Sequence record: LC788708.1
DNA from: Escherichia coli phage AZ21
DNA length: 64,000 bases
Reading direction: 5' to 3' (one strand)
In this document: piece by piece, positions 16,953 through 47,994 of the stretch
How the letters are laid out: each line of letters opens with the position of its first letter
Position numbering within the stretch: position 1 is the first letter of the stretch
Program-made: the position numbers and the translations under genes
Notes under the pieces: model-generated
Seen by the model: the letters and a program-made list of their open reading frames with translations, nothing else
The model's database searches: none
Told to the model about the DNA's origin: nothing

Positions 16953-17720
16953 TTATTCAGCAGCCGCAGCTTTTGCATCCAGTTTAGCACGCTTAGCGGC
17001 ACCATCATAGTCCTTAGCAACCAGACCACGACGAGACAGCATAGATTTAACACCGCGCTCAGACTTACCAGTTTTCTCAGCTATCTCAGCAACAGTCATG
17101 TTAACCAGATCCAGACCTTCTAACAGATCTTCACGAGTTTTAGCACTTGAAGTTTCCTGTACCGGCATAGCAGCGATACGACCTTCACGAAGCAGACTCA
17201 GAGCTTTACCACGGATCTGCTTGATATTACGACCGAAGTGAGCAGCGATAGCTTCAATAGTAGCACCAGCAACAACCTGATTAACAAAATCAGTTTCTTC
17301 ATCCGGAGTAAAGGAACGAACAGCAGCAGCTTTTTCGGTTGGCTTAACAGAAGCGGTCATTTCCAGACTCAGGATCTTACCCTGTACCTGTTTAGCACCG
17401 AACTGACCACCAGCTACAGCAGCAGCGATTTCAGCATAGGTATACTGACCAGCATGAGCGTTCAGGAAATCAACCAGTTCAGCTTCCTGCTCAGGAGTCC
17501 ACGGAGATTTCTGTACTTCGTTAGCTTTCTGTACTTCAAAACCTTCTTTACGCAGTTTAGAGCCAACAGAGCGAGCTGTAACGTCTTTGCCAGTTTCAGC
17601 AGCCAGTTCAGCAGCGATAGCAGCTACTTGTTCTTGAGAGATTACAGCAACACCCAGAGCAGTGGCTTTTGCTTTCAGAGACTCGGTTACACCTTCTACG
17701 TTCCAGTTCAGTTTAGACAT
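16953..17720 (-). CDS. Putative DNA-binding protein built from internal repeat modules (T5 D5 position)
   Basis: 255 aa; three to four repeated ~50-aa helix-rich modules such as FTPDEETDFVNQVVAGATIEAIAAHFGRNIKQIRGKALSLL and TVAEIAEKTGKSERGVKSML. Confidence 0.5.
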   Translation of the reverse strand: MSKLNWNVEGVTESLKAKATALGVAVISQEQVAAIAAELAAETGKDVTARSVGSKLRKEGFEVQKANEVQKSPWTPEQEAELVDFLNAHAGQYTYAEIAAAVAGGQFGAKQVQGKILSLEMTASVKPTEKAAAVRSFTPDEETDFVNQVVAGATIEAIAAHFGRNIKQIRGKALSLLREGRIAAMPVQETSSAKTREDLLEGLDLVNMTVAEIAEKTGKSERGVKSMLSRRGLVAKDYDGAAKRAKLDAKAAAAE

Positions 17721-18495
17721 TATTATTTTTCTCCAATAGTTCTTTAATCGACAGGATTTCTATCCCATTCGTTTCGGCTTTCTTATAAGATGAGGAAGAA
17801 CGTTTTGATTCATCCTCACAGATTAGGTATTTAACGTCTTTAGTAACGGATTTCTTAACCGTATACCCTAGACTTTCTAAATAGTTTGTTGCATCCGTTC
17901 TATTTGCAAAATCTTGCAAAGATCCGGTAATACATACCGCGATTCCATTTGGCTGGGCAATTAATTCATCTGTAATGATGACGTCAGCTTTAGTGCCCTT
18001 AATACCGGTTGAAAATTTCCACGGTAGTTCGATAACATCCTTGCCTTGTAGGGAATTTAGCCAGGCTTTATAATTTTCTCCAGCCTTGCCGTCAGCCTTC
18101 ACATCGTGGAAGCTAGTGCAATTTTGGGATAATTTCTTTGCTGCAACCTCTCCAATTAGAGGGATTCCTAAAGAACCGAGAACTGAACCAAAGTCAATGT
18201 CTCCGCGAACTTTAGTATTTAATTCGCTAATTAACTTAGCGGCAACCTTGCTACCCACGGCTCTAACCAAATCTTCTTCGGTTAGGTAAAATAGTTCTGA
18301 AATCTTCGTCAGCTCCAGCTTCTCAATAGTTTTCGGGCCAAAACCCTTTAACTTCATTTTTGTACAGAAGTTCTCAATTAACTTACTTGATTGCGCTGGA
18401 CAGTTGGACTTATTCCGACAGAATAATTGTCCGTTGACAAGATCTAGCTTAGAACCACAAGAGGGACATTGTGTTGGAATTTCGATTTTCATCAA
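17713..18495 (-). CDS. NAD-dependent DNA ligase, C-terminal half (Zn finger, HhH, BRCT)
   Basis: CPSCGSKLD...CRNKSNCP zinc finger, GFGPKTIEKL HhH, C-terminal BRCT-like segment; pairs with the adenylation-domain ORF upstream. Confidence 0.8.
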   Translation of the reverse strand: MMKIEIPTQCPSCGSKLDLVNGQLFCRNKSNCPAQSSKLIENFCTKMKLKGFGPKTIEKLELTKISELFYLTEEDLVRAVGSKVAAKLISELNTKVRGDIDFGSVLGSLGIPLIGEVAAKKLSQNCTSFHDVKADGKAGENYKAWLNSLQGKDVIELPWKFSTGIKGTKADVIITDELIAQPNGIAVCITGSLQDFANRTDATNYLESLGYTVKKSVTKDVKYLICEDESKRSSSSYKKAETNGIEILSIKELLEKNNNV

Positions 18496-18522
18496 ATTTC
18501 TTCCTTATCAATTTATATAAAT

Positions 18523-18551
18523 ATTATAGCAAGTATTTAAGCATTTAGCAA
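18523..18551 (-). promoter_or_regulatory. Sigma70-type early promoter for the ligase C-terminal-half gene
   Basis: Minus-strand reading ttgcta-17 nt-tataat then conserved box atttatataaattgataaggaag before ATG. Confidence 0.6.
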
Positions 18552-18694
18552 CTACAATTTTAACTAACTTTGCTTACCCTCGCCATAACTTTCTATCCCT
18601 CAACTGAATGATAATAGTATATACCTAAGCGGCGAAAATGTCAATAACCACTTTATAATTCCGATATGGTAGATGGGTAGCAAAGGGTTATGTA

Positions 18695-19666
18695 TTAATC
18701 GTATACTCGCTCTACTATGCACGGGATTACACCACCAGCACGAATCACTCGAATCTGGCAACCGATCTCTAGATCAAGAGAGTTAATATAATCAACGTTA
18801 TTAAGAGTCGCCTTAACAATTGTAGCATCATCAATAATTACCGGTTCGAAATAACCAACTGGAGTTACTTTACCAGAAGCCCCTACCTGCCATTCAACTT
18901 TAGTAAGAGTTGTAATCTCGCCTTCTTCATCCTCTTTAATAGCGAATGCTCCACGAGGGAATTTATTAGTCCAGCCTTCTCGGAAGAATTTGTTGTTGTC
19001 ATTAATACGAACAACTTTACCGTCCGTCGGAATCCATTTAAAGAAGGAACGCACATTAACAACTGTTAAGAAATCTTCATTCTCTAGCCAGAGCATATCT
19101 TTTAAATACGATTCTGTAATACCTACAGATTCAGCAGAACACTGGATACCGTATGCAACAAAGATTAAACCACCTTCCCCGATACGTTGTACGAAATCAT
19201 CGCTATCTTTGAGGTTAATAGCACCAGAGGCAAAGTTACGTTTATTTTCTACTTCTTTTGTAATTAGAACTTCACCAGTGATTTGAGTAGGTACTTTTTG
19301 GGAAATCTTTTTGGGGATGTTCAGCAATCTTACGTTGCTTGTGACATCATTCCCTAGAATACCATTACCACGAGTTAGTGCTTGAACAAATTCGCCATTA
19401 ATATATAGCAGAGAAATCGCACAACCATCTAACTTATCAGTTTCTACCTGACCTAACGGGTTAAATGGGGGTTTATCTCCACGATTATAATAAACTTTCT
19501 GTAAAGAATACATACGATACAGATGTGGAATATCACCCTTAGGCCCGATCTCTTCTTCTAATGGAAATCTTTTAATCAGACGATCATATTCTTCGTCAGA
19601 GATTAAAGACATTCCCTGGTAATATGCTTCTTGGCAACGTTTAATAAAGTCTTTTACATTAGTCAT
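18695..19666 (-). CDS. NAD-dependent DNA ligase, N-terminal half (adenylation and OB domains)
   Basis: 323 aa; KLDGCA adenylation motif (KxDG), further nucleotidyltransferase and OB-fold motifs. Confidence 0.85.
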   Translation of the reverse strand: MTNVKDFIKRCQEAYYQGMSLISDEEYDRLIKRFPLEEEIGPKGDIPHLYRMYSLQKVYYNRGDKPPFNPLGQVETDKLDGCAISLLYINGEFVQALTRGNGILGNDVTSNVRLLNIPKKISQKVPTQITGEVLITKEVENKRNFASGAINLKDSDDFVQRIGEGGLIFVAYGIQCSAESVGITESYLKDMLWLENEDFLTVVNVRSFFKWIPTDGKVVRINDNNKFFREGWTNKFPRGAFAIKEDEEGEITTLTKVEWQVGASGKVTPVGYFEPVIIDDATIVKATLNNVDYINSLDLEIGCQIRVIRAGGVIPCIVERVYD

Positions 19667-19697
19667 TTATTTGTATCTCTCATCAATTTATATAAAT

Positions 19698-19726
19698 ATT
19701 ATATAATAAAACTGAGTTGAAAGCAA
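19698..19726 (-). promoter_or_regulatory. Sigma70-type early promoter for the ligase N-terminal-half gene
   Basis: Minus-strand reading ttgctt-tcaactcagttttatta-tataat-atttatataaattgatgagagatacaaATG. Confidence 0.65.
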
Positions 19727-19740
19727 ATACATTTATAAAG

Positions 19741-19770
19741 AAAAAGCCAAGAACTAGGCATTCTTGGCTT
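19741..19770 (-). terminator. Rho-independent terminator
   Basis: Minus-strand reading agccaagaatgcctagttcttggct followed by ttttcttt. Confidence 0.65.
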
Positions 19771-20062
19771 TGAGTTCTTCAGCTCGTTTCTGTACTTCAT
19801 GTAAAACCTCAGATTCGCTAAGAATCTGTGTAAACGCATAGAAAAGCTGTGATGTTGTTTCTAGGGTGTAAGGAAAAGAGAAGCCAGATTTCGTTGGAAA
19901 CCACTCATCATTAATATCAAGAAGCCAGTAACGAATACCCATGTATAGATTCCCACGAAATTCAGATACTGTTAATCTTACTTGTTCTCCCTCCTTCTCC
20001 CAAAGTATGATGGACTGGTCATCAACGTGTCCTTCATAGTTTTGATTTACCTGTTCGCTCAT
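19754..20062 (-). CDS. Hypothetical protein
   Basis: 102-aa ORF between terminator hairpins. Confidence 0.5.
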   Translation of the reverse strand: MSEQVNQNYEGHVDDQSIILWEKEGEQVRLTVSEFRGNLYMGIRYWLLDINDEWFPTKSGFSFPYTLETTSQLFYAFTQILSESEVLHEVQKRAEELKAKNA

Positions 20063-44193: not shown

Positions 44194-44265
44194 GCCGTCC
44201 TAGTATAATTGGTATTATCAAGCCGTAACTGGTGGAAGATGTAGGTTCGAATCCTACGGTCGGTA
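44194..44265 (+). tRNA. tRNA-like gene with canonical T-arm but irregular acceptor/anticodon arms (possible degenerate tRNA)
   Basis: T-arm gtagg-ttcgaat-cctac and D-loop aattgg are present; acceptor gccgtcc/ggtcggt has one U-U mismatch; best anticodon stem has only 4 bp (loop gccgtaa); no encoded CCA. Confidence 0.4.
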
Positions 44266-44767
44266 AGAACTGGATAACTGATGCTTTTAACGTAAAAGCT
44301 TCCGAGGTTAGTTGCGCACTGCCTAAACCACGCGGTAGTTGGTTCCAGACTAACCAACCAGTCTGCTGAATAGTTTTATTACGATTTAACTATGTCCAGG
44401 CTAAAGAAGAACTTTAGAAGGTATTCTAGGATAGTGAAGTTCTTTCTCCACATCGGAGTAGTTTTTCAAGCTATCCACAAAGTGGGAAATGCTGACATGA
44501 GAGATGTCACTAATGGTGCACAATAGCACAGGTAATTCGCGATAATTCCTGTTGAGTAGCAGCAAAAGGCGGGAAGTCATGACCCCAAGCCTAACCGAGT
44601 CCTCAATATACCGCAGGGCATAACCACTAAGTCACCCTGACTTAAACTGGAAAATAATAGACGTTACTGTATTTTGTCTTGAAATACTTAATGAGTGAGA
44701 CTTATGACTCTCCCGGTATCGTCTGTATTTTTAAGAGTTTTTACGAGAGTTCTTAAAAATACTTAAA

Positions 44768-44842
44768 CGGGGTGTAGTCTAAGGGAGAGGCAGGAGTCTT
44801 CTAAATTCCTTTATGCAGGTTCGAATCCTGTCACCTCGGCCA
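44768..44842 (+). tRNA. tRNA-Arg (anticodon UCU)
   Basis: Acceptor cggggtg/cacctcg, D-stem gtct/aggc, anticodon stem ggagt/attcc with loop cTTCTAa, T-arm gcagg-ttcgaat-cctgt, discriminator g, encoded CCA. Confidence 0.8.
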
Positions 44843-44876
44843 ATTTTATTAACTGTAACTAAAACAAAGGAAACAT

Positions 44877-45824
44877 ATGTTTAATACTAAAAATATGAAA
44901 GAATTGACTTCTGAGCAGAAAGTAATTCGTACTATTAAACGTTGGGGTATTGGTGCTGTAGTTGGTTTAGCAGGTTTAATCCTAGCTTTTAATTCGTATA
45001 CCATTGTTTCTGATGGTACGGTTAAAACCCAAACATTCCTGGGTAAAGTAGACCCTAATCCAGTATTACCTGGTTTCCATCTTGTAAACCCGTTTGCATC
45101 TTTCGATACTTTTAGTACGAAAGATATTTCTATGAAACTGGATAAACTTCAGGTTCCTAGCCAGGATAAGTTTAAGTCTACAGTTGACATTACCGTTATG
45201 TTGCAGTTTGATGGTGCTAAAGCTCCTATTAACCGTGTTAACGCAGGTACTCAGGATCAAGCTCTGAACAAGTACGTTGAAGAGAAGATGCTGTCTACGA
45301 TTCGTGAGTTTGGTAAGTCTGTACCAAAAGCACAAGATCTGTTCGACGCTAAGATTCAGGCTCAACTGCAAACCGCTATTCAGCAAGAAGTAGAAGAGTA
45401 TGCGCGTCCTTATGGCTACACCGTTAAGCAAGTATTCCTTCAGGATATTACTCTGCCACCGGTAATCATGGAACAGGTACAAAACACCAAAGTTCGTGAA
45501 GAACAAGTTAACGCTGCAAAAGCTGAACTAGCTCGTGTTGAACAAGAAGCACAGCAGAAAGTTAAGCAAGCTGAGGCTGATCGTTCTGCTCGTGAAAATA
45601 TGGCAGTAGCTAACGAACGTGACGCAGATGCTAAACTGTATGCGGCTAAGAAAGAAGCTGAAGCTAACACCGCTCTGCAGCGTACCATCACTCCAGAGAT
45701 GATTCGCTGGAAACAGCTGGAAGTTGATATGAAACGCGCTGAAAAATATCAGGGTGGCGTTCCTCAGACTGTTGTAGGTACTGGTTATGATGGCCAGATG
45801 ATTATGGATATGCGTAATAAGTAA
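44877..45824 (+). CDS. SPFH/band-7 (prohibitin/HflC-like) membrane protein
   Basis: 315 aa; N-terminal TM helix IGAVVGLAGLILAF, SPFH core, C-terminal coiled-coil. Confidence 0.65.
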   Translation: MFNTKNMKELTSEQKVIRTIKRWGIGAVVGLAGLILAFNSYTIVSDGTVKTQTFLGKVDPNPVLPGFHLVNPFASFDTFSTKDISMKLDKLQVPSQDKFKSTVDITVMLQFDGAKAPINRVNAGTQDQALNKYVEEKMLSTIREFGKSVPKAQDLFDAKIQAQLQTAIQQEVEEYARPYGYTVKQVFLQDITLPPVIMEQVQNTKVREEQVNAAKAELARVEQEAQQKVKQAEADRSARENMAVANERDADAKLYAAKKEAEANTALQRTITPEMIRWKQLEVDMKRAEKYQGGVPQTVVGTGYDGQMIMDMRNK

Positions 45825-45847
45825 TAGTTACACGTAATCTTCGAAAC

Positions 45848-45882
45848 AAGCCCGCGTTTCCTCCGAGAGCGCGGGCTTTTCT
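45848..45882 (+). terminator. Rho-independent terminator
   Basis: aagcccgcg-loop-cgcgggctt followed by ttctg. Confidence 0.7.
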
Positions 45883-46027
45883 GTATTTAAGGCAAAAGAA
45901 AAGCCCATAAGTTATTCAACTAAGGTCTTTAGTACTTAATTCTTTAGAATCATATACTATTATTGCAGCAACAACGTGCTACCACTAAATGCCCTACGAT
46001 TTTCCTCTAAAAAGTTAAAAAATTCGA

Positions 46028-46056
46028 TTGCTTGAATGCTAAATTCTCTGTATAAT
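46028..46056 (+). promoter_or_regulatory. Sigma70-type early promoter
   Basis: ttgctt-17 nt-tataat-atatttataaatttgagagagg. Confidence 0.7.
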
Positions 46057-46086
46057 ATATTTATAAATTTGAGAGAGGAATCAAAT

Positions 46087-46383
46087 ATGAAACGCATTGT
46101 ACTTGCATTGACTCTAGTATCTACTTCTGTATTTGCTGCTCCACAACAGGAACTTTGTCAAGTTCAAGTTTGTAATAAGCTAGAACGATTTACTTTGGAT
46201 ATTTGGTCACACATTAAAGATAATATGGGTGAGCAATGTTTTGATATTGTTCTGCCAAAAGAACAAGCTGTTCCTGGTGCTGTTCTCAGCTCAGAATCAC
46301 GTTGGTGGCAAGGTTCTTCTATCAATCCAACTAAGAAGTCAGTGACACGTATCAAACAAGTGTATCAGTGCAGTGTTCAGTAA
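46087..46383 (+). CDS. Small secreted Cys-containing protein
   Basis: Signal peptide MKRIVLALTLVSTSVFAAPQ; 98 aa; start at ATG with RBS gagagagg. Confidence 0.5.
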   Translation: MKRIVLALTLVSTSVFAAPQQELCQVQVCNKLERFTLDIWSHIKDNMGEQCFDIVLPKEQAVPGAVLSSESRWWQGSSINPTKKSVTRIKQVYQCSVQ

Positions 46384-46391
46384 AATTTCAC

Positions 46392-46420
46392 TTGCTTAAT
46401 GCCGAAATTTTCTATATAAT
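46392..46420 (+). promoter_or_regulatory. Sigma70-type early promoter
   Basis: ttgctt-17 nt-tataat. Confidence 0.65.
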
Positions 46421-46451
46421 ATATTCTATAAATTATAGATAGGAGTCATAT

Positions 46452-46970
46452 ATGACTGTTGACGAGTTAAAACAACATCTTTTATCTAGGGGCTTTGATA
46501 GTGATAAGTATCACTGTTGGCTCTCTCCACATGGATGGTTAACAGTTCCACTGTATGATTTCTCTGGCATGTTACGTGGATATCAAACATATAACCCTAG
46601 TGCAGCTAAAGGTCATGGAAAATGTCCTTCTGAAGCTAAATATTTTACGCATTCTTCTACTCAATGTCTATGGGGTTTAGAAACTCTTACAGGTAATGAA
46701 GACCTAGTATTAGTTGCAGAATCTGTATTTAAAGCTGTGGCACTACACAACGCGGGATATCCCGCACTAGCAATGCTAGGATCTTCCCCTAGCAAAGCAC
46801 TGCTAAAGCAGCTAAAATTACAACCTTTTAAAGTAGTAGCCGTAGGCGATAATGATTCTGCTGGTGAGAAGTTTGCTAAAAAACTAAATGGGTTTACTTC
46901 CCTCATGGATTTAGATGAAATGAATACAGAAAACTTGAAAAATTTTCTTGCCATGAAGCTAAATTTCTAA
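46452..46970 (+). CDS. Hypothetical protein with TOPRIM-like segment
   Basis: 172 aa; LVLVAESVFKAVAL...VVAVGDNDSAGEKFAKKL resembles TOPRIM acidic motifs; the downstream tRNA promoter -35 lies within its 3' end. Confidence 0.4.
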   Translation: MTVDELKQHLLSRGFDSDKYHCWLSPHGWLTVPLYDFSGMLRGYQTYNPSAAKGHGKCPSEAKYFTHSSTQCLWGLETLTGNEDLVLVAESVFKAVALHNAGYPALAMLGSSPSKALLKQLKLQPFKVVAVGDNDSAGEKFAKKLNGFTSLMDLDEMNTENLKNFLAMKLNF

Positions 46971-46976
46971 TATAAT
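46948..46976 (+). promoter_or_regulatory. Sigma70-type promoter for tRNA-Ser/tRNA-Met pair
   Basis: ttgcca-17 nt-tataat-atattcataaattt immediately followed by the tRNA 5' end. Confidence 0.65.
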
Positions 46977-46990
46977 ATATTCATAAATTT

Positions 46991-47084
46991 GGAAGATTAA
47001 CCCTAAAGGTAAGGGAGCTGTTTGCTAAACAGCCAGTAGCTGTGGAGACACGGTGTGCCAGTTCGAATCTGGCATCTTCCTCCA
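46991..47084 (+). tRNA. tRNA-Ser (anticodon GCU), class II with long variable arm
   Basis: Acceptor ggaagat/atcttcc (7 bp), anticodon stem gctgt/acagc with loop tTGCTaa, long variable arm, T-arm gccag-ttcgaat-ctggc, encoded CCA. Confidence 0.8.
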
Positions 47085-47089
47085 AATTT

Positions 47090-47167
47090 GGTTCTCAAGC
47101 TCATTTGGTATGAGCCGTCGCCTCATAAGCGAAAGGTAGGCAGGTTCGAATCCTCCGGGAGCCACCA
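47090..47167 (+). tRNA. tRNA with CAU anticodon (Met or Ile-lysidine type)
   Basis: Acceptor ggttctc/gggagcc, D-stem gctc/gagc, anticodon loop cTCATaa, T-loop ttcgaat, encoded CCA; one non-WC pair in each of the anticodon and T stems. Confidence 0.6.
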
Positions 47168-47186
47168 AATTAAATAAGGACAACTA

Positions 47187-47375
47187 ATGGAATTATTCAT
47201 AGTTTCTATTAAATTTGCACAAGATAGAGAACATTCGGACGAGTTTAAACAAGGGTACAGACTAGTAAAGGCTACATCTGAACTACATGCTATGGACAAA
47301 GTAGTAGACTATATGTATAAAGTAGAAGACGTTTACTACGTCAATGCTTTAGAAGCCTCAAAAGTAATTAACTAG
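47187..47375 (+). CDS. Hypothetical protein
   Basis: 62-aa ORF with RBS aaggacaactaATG. Confidence 0.45.
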   Translation: MELFIVSIKFAQDREHSDEFKQGYRLVKATSELHAMDKVVDYMYKVEDVYYVNALEASKVIN

Positions 47376-47383
47376 GAGACTAT

Positions 47384-47569
47384 ATGTCCAAATTTCAAGA
47401 ACTCAAGCAAGAGCTAGAAGAGTGTGCCTGCCCAAAATGCTTCGGAGTAGGTGAGTGGAACGATGCTGAACCCGGTGATACACGGTATAATACATACGTT
47501 TGTACATATTGTAATGGTTCTGGTATTAATCCTGAATGTGGTATTTCTCTAGACATTGAGCGAGGTTAA
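47384..47569 (+). CDS. Small zinc-ribbon-like Cys-rich protein
   Basis: 61 aa; CACPKCFG ... CTYCNGSG. Confidence 0.45.
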   Translation: MSKFQELKQELEECACPKCFGVGEWNDAEPGDTRYNTYVCTYCNGSGINPECGISLDIERG

Positions 47570-47909
47570 GATGGATATTTTTACTACTCCGGCAATAAAC
47601 CTTTTAGGTGTTGGCTTGTTCCAAGCTACGGTGTATCGTACTGATGATTCTACTGATGTGGTAACGTTCATCGTACCTGAGTTCTTCCTAGAAAAGTTCT
47701 TTGAAGAGTTTGAGCAGTTCCGTGAAGAACACAATGCTCATTCCGATATGGAAGATCTAGCAGCTATGTTCCCTGCGGTTTACGGCTATATCTTTGAAGG
47801 TAATGGCCTAGATCTTAATAAATCTGAACTCGTTGAACTTAACTGGGGCATCAATTTTGAAGTTGGCTCTCCATTCCCTCGATATTTCCAGGGTTTAGAG
47901 ATTCGCTAA
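47556..47909 (+). CDS. Hypothetical acidic protein
   Basis: 117-aa ORF overlapping the upstream stop. Confidence 0.45.
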   Translation: MSEVKMDIFTTPAINLLGVGLFQATVYRTDDSTDVVTFIVPEFFLEKFFEEFEQFREEHNAHSDMEDLAAMFPAVYGYIFEGNGLDLNKSELVELNWGINFEVGSPFPRYFQGLEIR

Positions 47910-47917
47910 GATTACAT

Positions 47918-47994
47918 GGGGGTGTAATCGAATTGGCATAGGTACTGGACTTAAAATTCAGGTTTTGTGGGTTCGAATCCCACCACCCCTACCA
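47918..47994 (+). tRNA. tRNA with UAA anticodon (Leu by anticodon) but class I short variable arm
   Basis: Acceptor gggggtg/cacccct (7 bp), anticodon stem ctgga/ttcag with loop cTTAAaa, 5-nt variable loop, T-arm gtggg-ttcgaat-cccac, discriminator a, encoded CCA. Confidence 0.6.

What the first reader, a model, noticed from the sequence alone, without database searches (positions are those of the whole stretch)
17713..19666. NAD-dependent DNA ligase encoded as two separate genes with an intervening 200-bp promoter-containing spacer
The adenylation/OB half (18695..19666) and the Zn-finger/HhH/BRCT half (17713..18495) are separate ORFs on the same strand. The spacer (18496..18694) carries its own canonical early promoter and has no ORF. 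This is either a genuinely split two-subunit ligase or the scar of an excised insertion.
Basis: partly seen in the sequence, partly recalled or inferred. Interest (0 to 1): 0.4.

Follow-up and report, generated by a model that had tools for sequence, protein, structure and literature searches.

The report
Phage T5 two-gene DNA ligase
This is the well-known split NAD-dependent DNA ligase of bacteriophage T5 and its relatives (genes ligA and ligB), separated by a spacer holding the named T5 early promoters PK28b and PK28a; it is real but already described.

Summary
The window is a T5-like phage, 100% identical here to E. coli phage AZ23. On the minus strand, ligA (18695..19666, 323 aa) carries domain Ia, the adenylation domain and the OB fold. 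ligB (17713..18492, 259 aa from the ATG) carries the Zn finger, HhH and BRCT. They lie in different frames. The 202-bp spacer has at least 5 stop codons in every frame, so no single frameshift can fuse them.

The break maps to the OB-to-Zn linker of E. coli LigA, and no domain is missing. The spacer is identical to that of T5, whose RefSeq record names two promoters there, P-K28b and P-K28a.

The split is already known. [quoted passage not shown] 2005. PHROGs has separate families for each half. PDB entries 9HU3 and 9I5I hold both subunits of the Providencia phage PR1 homologue.

All 93 T5-family loci I surveyed, down to about 40% identity, have the same split, order and synteny. The only fused homologue I inspected is an outgroup. 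There is no intein, no endonuclease and no sign of a recent excision scar.

Verdict: genuine two-subunit ligase, already known, low interest.

The parts
19743..19771 (-). Intrinsic-terminator-like hairpin at the end of the upstream PC4-like regulator gene. It marks the start of the ligA transcription unit.
   Evidence: 12-bp stem followed by a T-run. T5-like records annotate a terminator at the equivalent place.
19698..19726 (-). Promoter upstream of ligA (TTGCTT-17-TATAAT). From the -10 onward it shares a perfect 22-mer with PK28a.
   Evidence: Read from the sequence. The 22-mer matches at 19682..19703 and 18507..18528. T5 RefSeq annotates an unnamed promoter at the equivalent position, 65284..65358.
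18695..19666 (-). [quoted passage not shown] It contains a shortened domain Ia, the nucleotidyltransferase domain with KLDG (K78), and the OB fold.
   Evidence: Pfam PF01653 and PF03120. phrog_3359, 2.9e-176. 98.8% identical to T5 LigA. E 6e-104 to PDB 9hu3_A. K78 aligns to E. coli K115, and residue 320 aligns to E. coli 390.
18616..18644 (-). Distal spacer promoter, the T5 promoter P-K28b (TTGACA-17-TATACT).
   Evidence: 11 of 12 consensus matches. It falls inside the T5 RefSeq feature 'promoter P-K 28b' (66366..66440, equivalent to window 18664..18590). The spacer is identical to T5. Its hexamers are invariant in 11 lineages.
18523..18551 (-). Proximal spacer promoter, the T5 promoter P-K28a (TTGCTA-17-TATAAT with an extended -10 TG). 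The -10 ends 30 nt before the ligB ATG.
   Evidence: It falls inside the T5 RefSeq feature 'promoter P-K 28a' (66459..66533, equivalent to window 18571..18497). TTGnTATAAT is invariant in 11 lineages. Its position is conserved at 28-31 nt from the ATG.
18493..18694 (-). The 202-bp ligA-ligB intergenic spacer. It has no conserved ORF, no predicted terminator, and 31% G+C.
   Evidence: No Rfam family matches there.
17713..18492 (-). ligB: NAD-dependent DNA ligase subunit B, 259 aa. It contains a Cys4 Zn finger (C9, C12, C25, C31), HhH and BRCT.
   Evidence: Pfam BRCT and HhH. phrog_3498, 2e-136. E 1.8e-80 to PDB 9hu3_B. Residue 3 aligns to E. coli LigA 402. The four Cys are invariant in 8 lineages.
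16953..17720 (-). D5 DNA-binding protein gene. Its ATG overlaps the ligB stop (ATGTCTAA), so it lies in the same transcription unit downstream of PK28b/PK28a. Listed as context.
   Evidence: T5.118 D5 annotation. D5 is immediately downstream of ligB in 93 of 93 loci.

Best explanation
This is the T5-type two-subunit NAD+-dependent DNA ligase.

**Subunits**
- LigA holds domain Ia, the nucleotidyltransferase domain and the OB fold. It is the catalytic half. It should react with NAD+ to form the ligase-AMP intermediate on Lys78 and transfer AMP to the 5' phosphate at a nick.
- LigB holds the Zn finger, HhH and BRCT. It is the DNA-binding half, which in single-chain LigA completes the clamp around nicked duplex DNA.
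- The two proteins associate non-covalently to rebuild a LigA-like enzyme. That enzyme would seal Okazaki fragments and nicks during phage replication.

**Transcription**
- A terminator and promoter precede ligA.
- No terminator follows ligA.
- Two strong early sigma-70 promoters (PK28b, PK28a) in the 202-bp gap add transcripts for ligB and the overlapping D5 gene.

**What is shown and what is inferred**
- Shown here: the domain content, the clean break in the OB-to-Zn linker, the conservation of the split and of the promoter cassette, and the identity to T5.
- Shown by others: both chains of the PR1 homologue occur in the same PDB entries, and T5 annotates the promoters by name.
- Inferred: ligase activity of this particular pair, the stoichiometry, and the idea that the promoters mainly serve D5.
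For: - **Identity of the locus:** the window is 100% identical to phage AZ23 and 97.5-98.4% identical to the other Tequintavirus genomes listed. The spacer is identical to T5.
- **Existing annotation:** T5 RefSeq annotates ligA (T5.116), ligB (T5.117) and promoters P-K28b and P-K28a between them.
[quoted passage not shown] 2005 in PMC1684257. That paper also shows that a LigN fragment of Ia, adenylation and OB domains still self-adenylates.
- **Domains:**. In the full-length ligase profile phrog_3869, ligA covers positions 9-381 and ligB covers 388-654.
- **Junction:** ligA residue 320 aligns to E. coli 390, and ligB residue 3 aligns to E. coli 402. ligB C9 corresponds to C408.
- **Structure of a homologue:** PDB 9hu3/9i5i hold chain A (339 aa) and chain B (248 aa, 'DNA ligase subunit B'). 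Chain B is 100% identical to Providencia phage PR1/PSTCR5 LigB.
- **Conserved residues:** KLDGCA, the domain Ia residues Y15 Y16 Y27 D28, and the four Zn Cys are invariant.
- **Survey:** 93 of 93 T5-family loci are split in the same order. D5 is downstream in 93 of 93.
- **Promoters:** the cassette is conserved in position across genera.
Against: - No biochemical assay of the T5 or AZ23 pair was found in the searchable literature.
- The PDB entries show the two chains together in the same entries, but I could not inspect the interface or find the paper.
- The HhH Pfam hit is below the gathering score (24.5 against 27).
- The adenylation domain is about 70 residues shorter than in E. coli LigA, and residues 148-251 align poorly.
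- My single-sequence structure model of LigB was unusable (pLDDT 36).
Confidence: 0.9

Rival explanations
1. Sequencing or assembly frameshift, or a decaying pseudogene: the ligase is really one ORF, or is broken.
For: None beyond the bare fact of two ORFs. One old record (Eps7, CP000917) annotates a truncated ligB, which looks like a record-specific error.
Against: The halves are 202 bp apart, with at least 5 stops in each frame. The architecture is identical in 430 independent phage records and in 93 of 93 surveyed loci. Both halves keep their catalytic and Zn residues at 40-50% identity.
Confidence: 0.01
2. The spacer is the scar of a recently excised mobile insertion (a homing endonuclease gene or similar) that split a once-continuous ligase gene.
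For: In some relatives the gap carries extra genes, one to three in Vibrio phages and a radical SAM gene in an environmental contig. The site therefore tolerates insertions. Splitting of phage genes by homing endonucleases is a known process (PMC2677866).
Against: None of the cargo genes checked is an endonuclease. The cargo lies between the ligA stop and the promoter cassette, which itself stays at a fixed distance from ligB. The spacer is constant at 202 bp across Tequintavirus and Epseptimavirus, and its conserved parts are promoter hexamers. The only fused homologue I inspected is a 30%-identical outgroup. The split therefore predates the family. An ancient insertion origin remains untestable here.
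Confidence: 0.04
3. A split-intein 'fractured gene': the two halves are joined after translation by protein trans-splicing.
For: A phage-like DNA ligase split by a split intein has been reported from metagenomes (PMC2677866).
Against: LigA ends about 3 residues after the last aligned OB residue, and LigB begins 2 residues before E. coli position 402. Only about 6 linker positions have no counterpart. That leaves no room for intein halves. Pfam finds no intein domain. The PDB entry holds two separate chains.
Confidence: 0.01
4. Subfunctionalisation: LigB is made in excess from PK28b/PK28a and has a role of its own, such as binding nicks or replisome partners through HhH/BRCT, besides completing the ligase.
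For: Two extra strong promoters act on ligB but not on ligA, and no terminator lies between them. A promoter directly upstream of ligB is seen in 41 of 42 representative gaps, although in some the match does not exceed shuffled controls. ligB is always coupled to D5.
Against: The promoters may simply serve D5, and LigB excess may be incidental. There are no expression or interaction data. Every genome surveyed here that has ligB also has ligA adjacent.
Confidence: 0.15

Closest known systems
Bacteriophage T5 LigA/LigB (T5.116/T5.117; AAU05253/AAU05254) with promoters P-K28b and P-K28a
   Same: The same genes: 98.8% and 96.5% amino-acid identity. The spacer is identical, and so are the flanking genes (PC4-like regulator, D5, D6 helicase).
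   Different: Nothing of substance. The window is another Tequintavirus isolate, AZ23, whose GenBank record labels these genes 'hypothetical protein'.
Providencia phage vB_PreS_PR1 ligase, PDB 9HU3/9I5I (chain A 'DNA ligase (NAD(+))', chain B 'DNA ligase subunit B')
   Same: The same two-chain architecture, and the same gene order, gap and promoters.
   Different: About 56% identity for each subunit. The gap is 192 bp. I found no associated paper and could not inspect the coordinates.
Single-chain bacterial LigA (E. coli LigA, PDB 2OWO)
   Same: All LigA modules are present in order: Ia, NTase with KxDG, OB, Cys4 Zn finger, HhH, BRCT.
   Different: One polypeptide of 671 aa against two of 323 and 259 aa. 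The phage NTase domain is shorter, and about 6 linker residues between OB and Zn have no counterpart.
Fractured genes with split inteins, and genes-in-pieces made by homing endonuclease insertion (Dassa et al. 2009, PMC2677866; the Aeromonas phage Aeh1 NrdA case is from my own knowledge)
   Same: A phage DNA-metabolism enzyme encoded as two adjacent same-strand ORFs.
   Different: No intein halves and no endonuclease gene, here or in any surveyed relative. The intervening DNA is a promoter cassette.
Engineered LigA domain fragments (Haloferax LigN-deltaC, PMC1684257; Bacillus stearothermophilus LigA fragments, Timson and Wigley 1999, from my own knowledge)
   Same: The Ia-NTase-OB fragment self-adenylates without the Zn/HhH/BRCT region. 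This mirrors the natural break point.
   Different: Those are artificial truncations. Here the break is natural, and the C-terminal half is supplied in trans.

Membership tests
NAD+-dependent DNA ligase (LigA family) | Nucleotidyltransferase domain with the KxDG adenylation motif | tested here: met
   PF01653, 2e-23. K78-L-D-G aligns to E. coli K115. KLDGCA is invariant in 8 lineages.
NAD+-dependent DNA ligase (LigA family) | N-terminal domain Ia with NMN-binding residues (YY...D.EYD), which confer NAD+ specificity | tested here: met
   Residues 4-42 align weakly to domain Ia of Thermus ligase. Y15, Y16, Y27 and D28 are invariant across 8 lineages. Assigning these residues to NMN binding rests on published E. 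coli mutagenesis, from my own knowledge.
NAD+-dependent DNA ligase (LigA family) | OB-fold domain | tested here: met
   PF03120, 3.6e-22, at residues 252-321. Residues 214-320 align to E. coli 284-390.
NAD+-dependent DNA ligase (LigA family) | Cys4 zinc finger, HhH and BRCT modules | tested here: met
   C9, C12, C25 and C31 are invariant and align with the E. coli Zn finger from residue 402. BRCT PF00533 scores 33.4 bits against a cut-off of 21.3. HhH is below the Pfam cut-off (24.5 against 27), but the region aligns to 2OWO residues 402-529.
NAD+-dependent DNA ligase (LigA family) | All modules on one polypeptide | tested here: not met
   Two ORFs, 202 bp apart and out of frame. This is the feature that defines the T5-type variant.
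T5-type split ligase (LigA subunit phrog_3359 plus LigB subunit phrog_3498) | Break in the OB-to-Zn linker, ligA upstream of ligB on one strand, inside the PC4-like/ligA/ligB/D5/D6 replication module | tested here: met
   phrog_3359, 2.9e-176, and phrog_3498, 2e-136. Junction mapping. Synteny.
T5-type split ligase (LigA subunit phrog_3359 plus LigB subunit phrog_3498) | The two subunits form a complex with nick-sealing activity | not testable with these tools
   The only evidence is indirect: both chains of the PR1 homologue occur in PDB 9HU3/9I5I.
T5 early promoters (P-K28a, P-K28b) | Sigma-70 -35 and -10 hexamers at the positions annotated in T5, with the early-class ATATT discriminator | tested here: met
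   The hexamers were found. The sequence is identical to the annotated T5 features. PK28a reads TATAATATT and so contains ATATT, the motif stated for early promoters in PMC7472727. Promoter activity itself was not tested here.
Split-intein fractured gene | N-intein at the end of the first ORF and C-intein at the start of the second | tested here: not met
   No extra residues at either end. No intein Pfam hit.
Gene split by a free-standing homing endonuclease | An endonuclease ORF (HNH, GIY-YIG or similar), or its remnant, between the halves | tested here: not met
   No ORF in the spacer. Gap cargo in relatives is DprA-like, radical SAM, crAss001_48-like or unknown, with no endonuclease among the ORFs checked.

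The most novel reading that the evidence does not exclude
The ligase break is maintained across the whole T5-like family because it coincides with a conserved transcription-unit boundary. A strong promoter cassette must sit directly upstream of ligB-D5, so LigB would be made independently of LigA, probably in excess. LigB may then act on its own as a nick-binding or replisome-binding factor, for example in handling the site-specific nicks of T5 DNA, in addition to completing the ligase.
Probability: 0.15. Interest if true: 0.4.

Novelty: already known. Interest (0 to 1): 0.08.

Why it matters
It matters little as a discovery. The split T5 ligase has been in the literature since the 2005 genome paper, it is annotated as subunits A and B in hundreds of genomes, and a homologous pair is in the PDB. 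The spacer promoters are named in the T5 RefSeq record.

The useful by-products are modest:
- The AZ23 record could be re-annotated, since its ligase genes are labelled hypothetical.
- The survey shows the split, and a promoter directly upstream of ligB, across the sampled family.
- The slot between ligA and the promoter cassette is a recurrent site for cargo genes.

Tried and rejected
- **Structure model:** a single-sequence AlphaFold model of LigB gave pLDDT 36 and was unusable, so no fold search was run.
- **Literature:** searches for a paper on 9HU3/9I5I, for 'split/heterodimeric DNA ligase', and for Providencia phage ligase found nothing relevant. A search for 'K28a/K28b' returned only unrelated hits. 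Gentz and Bujard 1985 (PMC214212) is not held.
- **Rfam:** nothing matches in the spacer. The only hits in the window are five tRNAs at 44-48 kb.
- **Mini-ORF:** the 8-codon ORF MARVSKVS in the spacer is not conserved in Klebsiella or Serratia relatives, so I rejected it as a gene.
- **Conserved RNA structure in the PK28b-to-ligB leader:**
  - RNAalifold found no pairs.
  - Single-sequence folds give z-scores from -0.6 to -4.3.
  - A hairpin whose 3' arm covers the proximal -35 occurs in 30 of 42 lineages against 23.9 expected (P about 0.03). This is too weak to claim.
- **Insertions in close relatives:** I suspected that the +179 to +465 bp differences lay in the ligA-ligB spacer. In phA11 they lie upstream of ligA, and the ligA-ligB gap stays 202 bp in every Tequintavirus/Epseptimavirus locus surveyed.
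- **Not run:** the large protein-database searches, because the verdict did not depend on them.
Full report
**1. What is there**

The window matches Escherichia coli phage AZ23 (LC788707) at 100% over 17600..19800. It matches the other Tequintavirus genomes listed at 97.5-98.4%. In all, 453 phage records match, and 430 of them cover at least 80% of the query.

Two ORFs lie on the minus strand.
- **18695..19666, 323 aa.** It hits the NAD-ligase adenylation domain (PF01653, 2e-23) and the NAD-ligase OB fold (PF03120, 3.6e-22).
- **17713..18495, 260 aa from a TTG, or 259 aa from the ATG at 18492.** It hits BRCT above the Pfam threshold and HhH just below it.

T5 RefSeq and the PDB homologue both start at the ATG (MKIEIP/MKIQIP). 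I therefore take ligB as 17713..18492 and the spacer as 18493..18694, which is 202 bp.

**2. Not an artefact**

The spacer has 7, 5 and 5 stop codons in its three frames. ligA and ligB are out of frame by one.

**3. Where the break falls**

- LigA K78 aligns with the E. coli LigA adenylation lysine K115.
- LigA residues 214-320 align with E. coli 284-390.
- LigB residue 3 aligns with E. coli 402. LigB C9 therefore corresponds to the first Zn-finger cysteine, C408.
- Against the full-length phage ligase profile phrog_3869 (656 positions), LigA covers 9-381 and LigB covers 388-654.

Only about six linker positions between the OB fold and the Zn finger lack a counterpart. No domain is missing, and there is no room for intein halves.

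Eight lineages at 50-73% (LigA) and 47-72% (LigB) identity to the window proteins keep these residues invariant: KLDGCA, the domain Ia residues Y15/Y16/Y27/D28, and the four Zn cysteines.

**4. The spacer**

A consensus scan finds two sigma-70 promoters on the coding strand:
- TTGACA-17-TATACT at 18644..18616.
- TTGCTA-17-TATAAT, with an extended -10 TG, at 18551..18523.

No terminator is predicted after ligA. A terminator-like hairpin (19771..19743) and a further promoter precede ligA.

The spacer is base-for-base identical to that of phage T5. T5's RefSeq record annotates 'promoter P-K 28b' and 'promoter P-K 28a' at exactly these places, between ligA (T5.116) and ligB (T5.117). As I recall, these belong to the strong T5 promoter set of Gentz and Bujard 1985, which is cited as reference 38 in PMC7472727; that 1985 paper is not held and I could not check it. 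PMC7472727 also states that T5 early promoters share an ATATT discriminator, and PK28a has it.

The ligB stop overlaps the start of D5 (ATGTCTAA). PK28b and PK28a therefore feed a ligB-D5 unit.

**5. Already known**

[quoted passage not shown] 2005. It also shows that a fragment of Haloferax LigN holding Ia, the adenylation domain and OB still self-adenylates.
- PHROGs holds separate families for the two subunits.
- The PDB holds entries 9HU3 and 9I5I, with a 339-aa 'DNA ligase (NAD(+))' chain and a 248-aa 'DNA ligase subunit B' chain. They match the window proteins at 6e-104 and 1.8e-80.
- The B chain is 100% identical to LigB of Providencia phages vB_PreS_PR1 and PSTCR5.
- I found no paper for those entries.

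**6. How old and how general the split is**

I fetched 14 loci from GenBank phage records and 80 viral contigs from IMG/VR that encode a LigB relative. The results are as follows.
- In 93 of 93 family loci, down to about 40% identity, ligA ends with a stop a few codons after the OB fold.
- In every one, ligB follows on the same strand.
- The intergenic distance ranges from 29 to 1374 bp.
- D5 lies immediately downstream in 93 of 93 loci, and the D6 helicase in 91 of 93.
- The only fused homologue I inspected is an outgroup: a human faecal phage contig at about 30% identity with a 647-aa ORF.

The fission therefore predates the family, and the gene is not a decaying or recently disrupted one.

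**7. Scar of an excised insertion?**

Within Tequintavirus and Epseptimavirus the gap is a constant 202 bp.

An alignment of 11 lineages shows what is invariant in the ligB-proximal 150 nt:
- the distal -35 (TTGAC);
- the distal -10 (TATA.T);
- an A-tract;
- the proximal -35 (TTGC);
- the extended -10 (TTGnTATAAT).

The sequence between these elements is free to vary. The distal -10 ends 116-126 nt before the ligB start codon, and the proximal -10 ends 28-31 nt before it. This holds in Tequintavirus, Sugarlandvirus, Serratia phage Slocum, Priunavirus, Novosibvirus and several Vibrio phages. Environmental relatives have a single promoter close to ligB. A candidate promoter is present in 41 of 42 representative gaps, although in some the match does not exceed shuffled controls.

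Where the gap is long, it holds cargo genes:
- a 73-aa ORF and a DprA-like protein in JSF12;
- three ORFs, including a DprA-like one, in Pontus;
- one ORF in 234P1 and one in PM135;
- a radical SAM protein in one environmental contig;
- a crAss001_48-like protein in another.

In the lineages inspected, the cargo sits between the ligA stop and the promoter cassette. None of the cargo ORFs checked is a homing endonuclease.

The T5 spacer is therefore a functional regulatory cassette, not debris. An insertion at the origin of the family can be neither shown nor excluded.

**8. Mechanism**

By homology, LigA is adenylated by NAD+ on K78. LigB supplies the Zn/HhH/BRCT DNA-binding modules. In E. coli LigA these modules close the clamp round nicked DNA (PDB 2OWO; domain roles are from my own knowledge of the family). 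The presence of both chains of the PR1 pair in the same PDB entries supports a non-covalent heterodimer.

ligB receives transcripts from the ligA promoter by read-through, and also from PK28b and PK28a. Together with D5, it is therefore probably expressed more strongly than ligA. That step is inference.

**9. Loose ends**

- A purine-rich GGGA motif follows the distal promoter in most lineages. The mini-ORFs after it are not conserved.
- The T5-type leader folds well (-26.1 kcal/mol, z = -3.46). No consensus structure emerges across lineages.
- A hairpin covering the proximal -35 is only weakly enriched.

**10. Verdict**

The feature is the textbook T5 split ligase with its named promoters. 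Novelty: already known. Interest: low.

Noticed in passing
L006 3453-4285 (Vibrio phage JSF12); L008 3469-4687 (Pontus); L007 3457-3753 (234P1); L014 2649-2816 (PM135); L053 564-1568; L046 4319-4849; L091 473-875: In some T5-like lineages the slot between the ligA stop and the ligB promoter cassette carries one to three cargo genes. They include a DprA-like protein (phrog_768) in JSF12 and Pontus, a 334-aa radical SAM protein (PF04055, 2.7e-11) in an environmental contig, a crAss001_48-like protein, and several unknowns. None of those checked is a homing endonuclease.
   Followed up: partly
window 18497..18664 and the equivalent 150 nt upstream of ligB in L004-L008, L013, L014, L037, L038, L041, L046: The tandem promoter pair (distal TTGAC[AG]-17-TATA[AC]T, proximal TTGC-type -35 with an extended -10 TGnTATAAT) sits at fixed distances from the ligB start codon across at least six genera. 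The distal -10 ends 116-126 nt before it and the proximal -10 ends 28-31 nt before it. The sequence between the two promoters varies freely.
   Followed up: yes
window 18575..18600 (minus strand): A Shine-Dalgarno-like GAGGGA lies about 15 nt after the PK28b -10, followed by an 8-codon mini-ORF (MARVSKVS). The GGGA motif recurs in most lineages. The mini-ORF differs in length and sequence between them (9 codons in PR1, 2 in 234P1). Its purpose is unexplained.
   Followed up: partly
window 18490..18609 (minus strand): The PK28b-to-ligB leader folds into a long hairpin (-26.1 kcal/mol, z = -3.46). The hairpin pairs the mini-ORF start with the PK28a -10 region. In many lineages an inverted repeat has its 3' arm on the proximal -35.
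   Followed up: partly
window 18507..18528, 19682..19703 (minus strand); 42598, 48407, 50855, 58843 (plus strand): The 22-mer TATAATATTTATATAAATTGAT (the -10 plus the initial transcribed region) is identical upstream of ligA and of ligB. It recurs with 1-3 mismatches at four plus-strand sites (0.03 expected by chance). This looks like a shared early-promoter module used on both strands.
   Followed up: partly
L002 1634-2107 (phage phA11); L020 and other loci where the PC4-like gene lies further upstream of ligA: The spacer between the PC4-like regulator gene and ligA varies among very close relatives. In phA11 it carries two small ORFs. Other close relatives differ in this region by +179 to +465 bp, while the ligA-ligB spacer stays at 202 bp.
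   Followed up: partly
L010 3473-4453 (Escherichia phage Eps7, CP000917): ligB is annotated as a truncated 129-aa protein, and tblastn picks up only residues 94-259 in one frame. This is probably a frameshift in that older record rather than biology.
   Followed up: no
L006 3453-3674 (JSF12 gp143): A 73-aa protein is annotated 'DNA ligase' (phrog_13916). It has no Pfam hit and no evident similarity to any LigA domain. The name may come only from its position next to ligA.
   Followed up: partly
window 44194..47991 (plus strand): Five tRNA genes reach the Rfam gathering score. This is presumably the T5-type tRNA cluster.
   Followed up: no
window 17600..19800, corresponding to LC788707 17672..19872: The 100%-identical GenBank record (phage AZ23) labels all four genes under this stretch, including ligA and ligB, 'hypothetical protein'. 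The record could be re-annotated.
   Followed up: no
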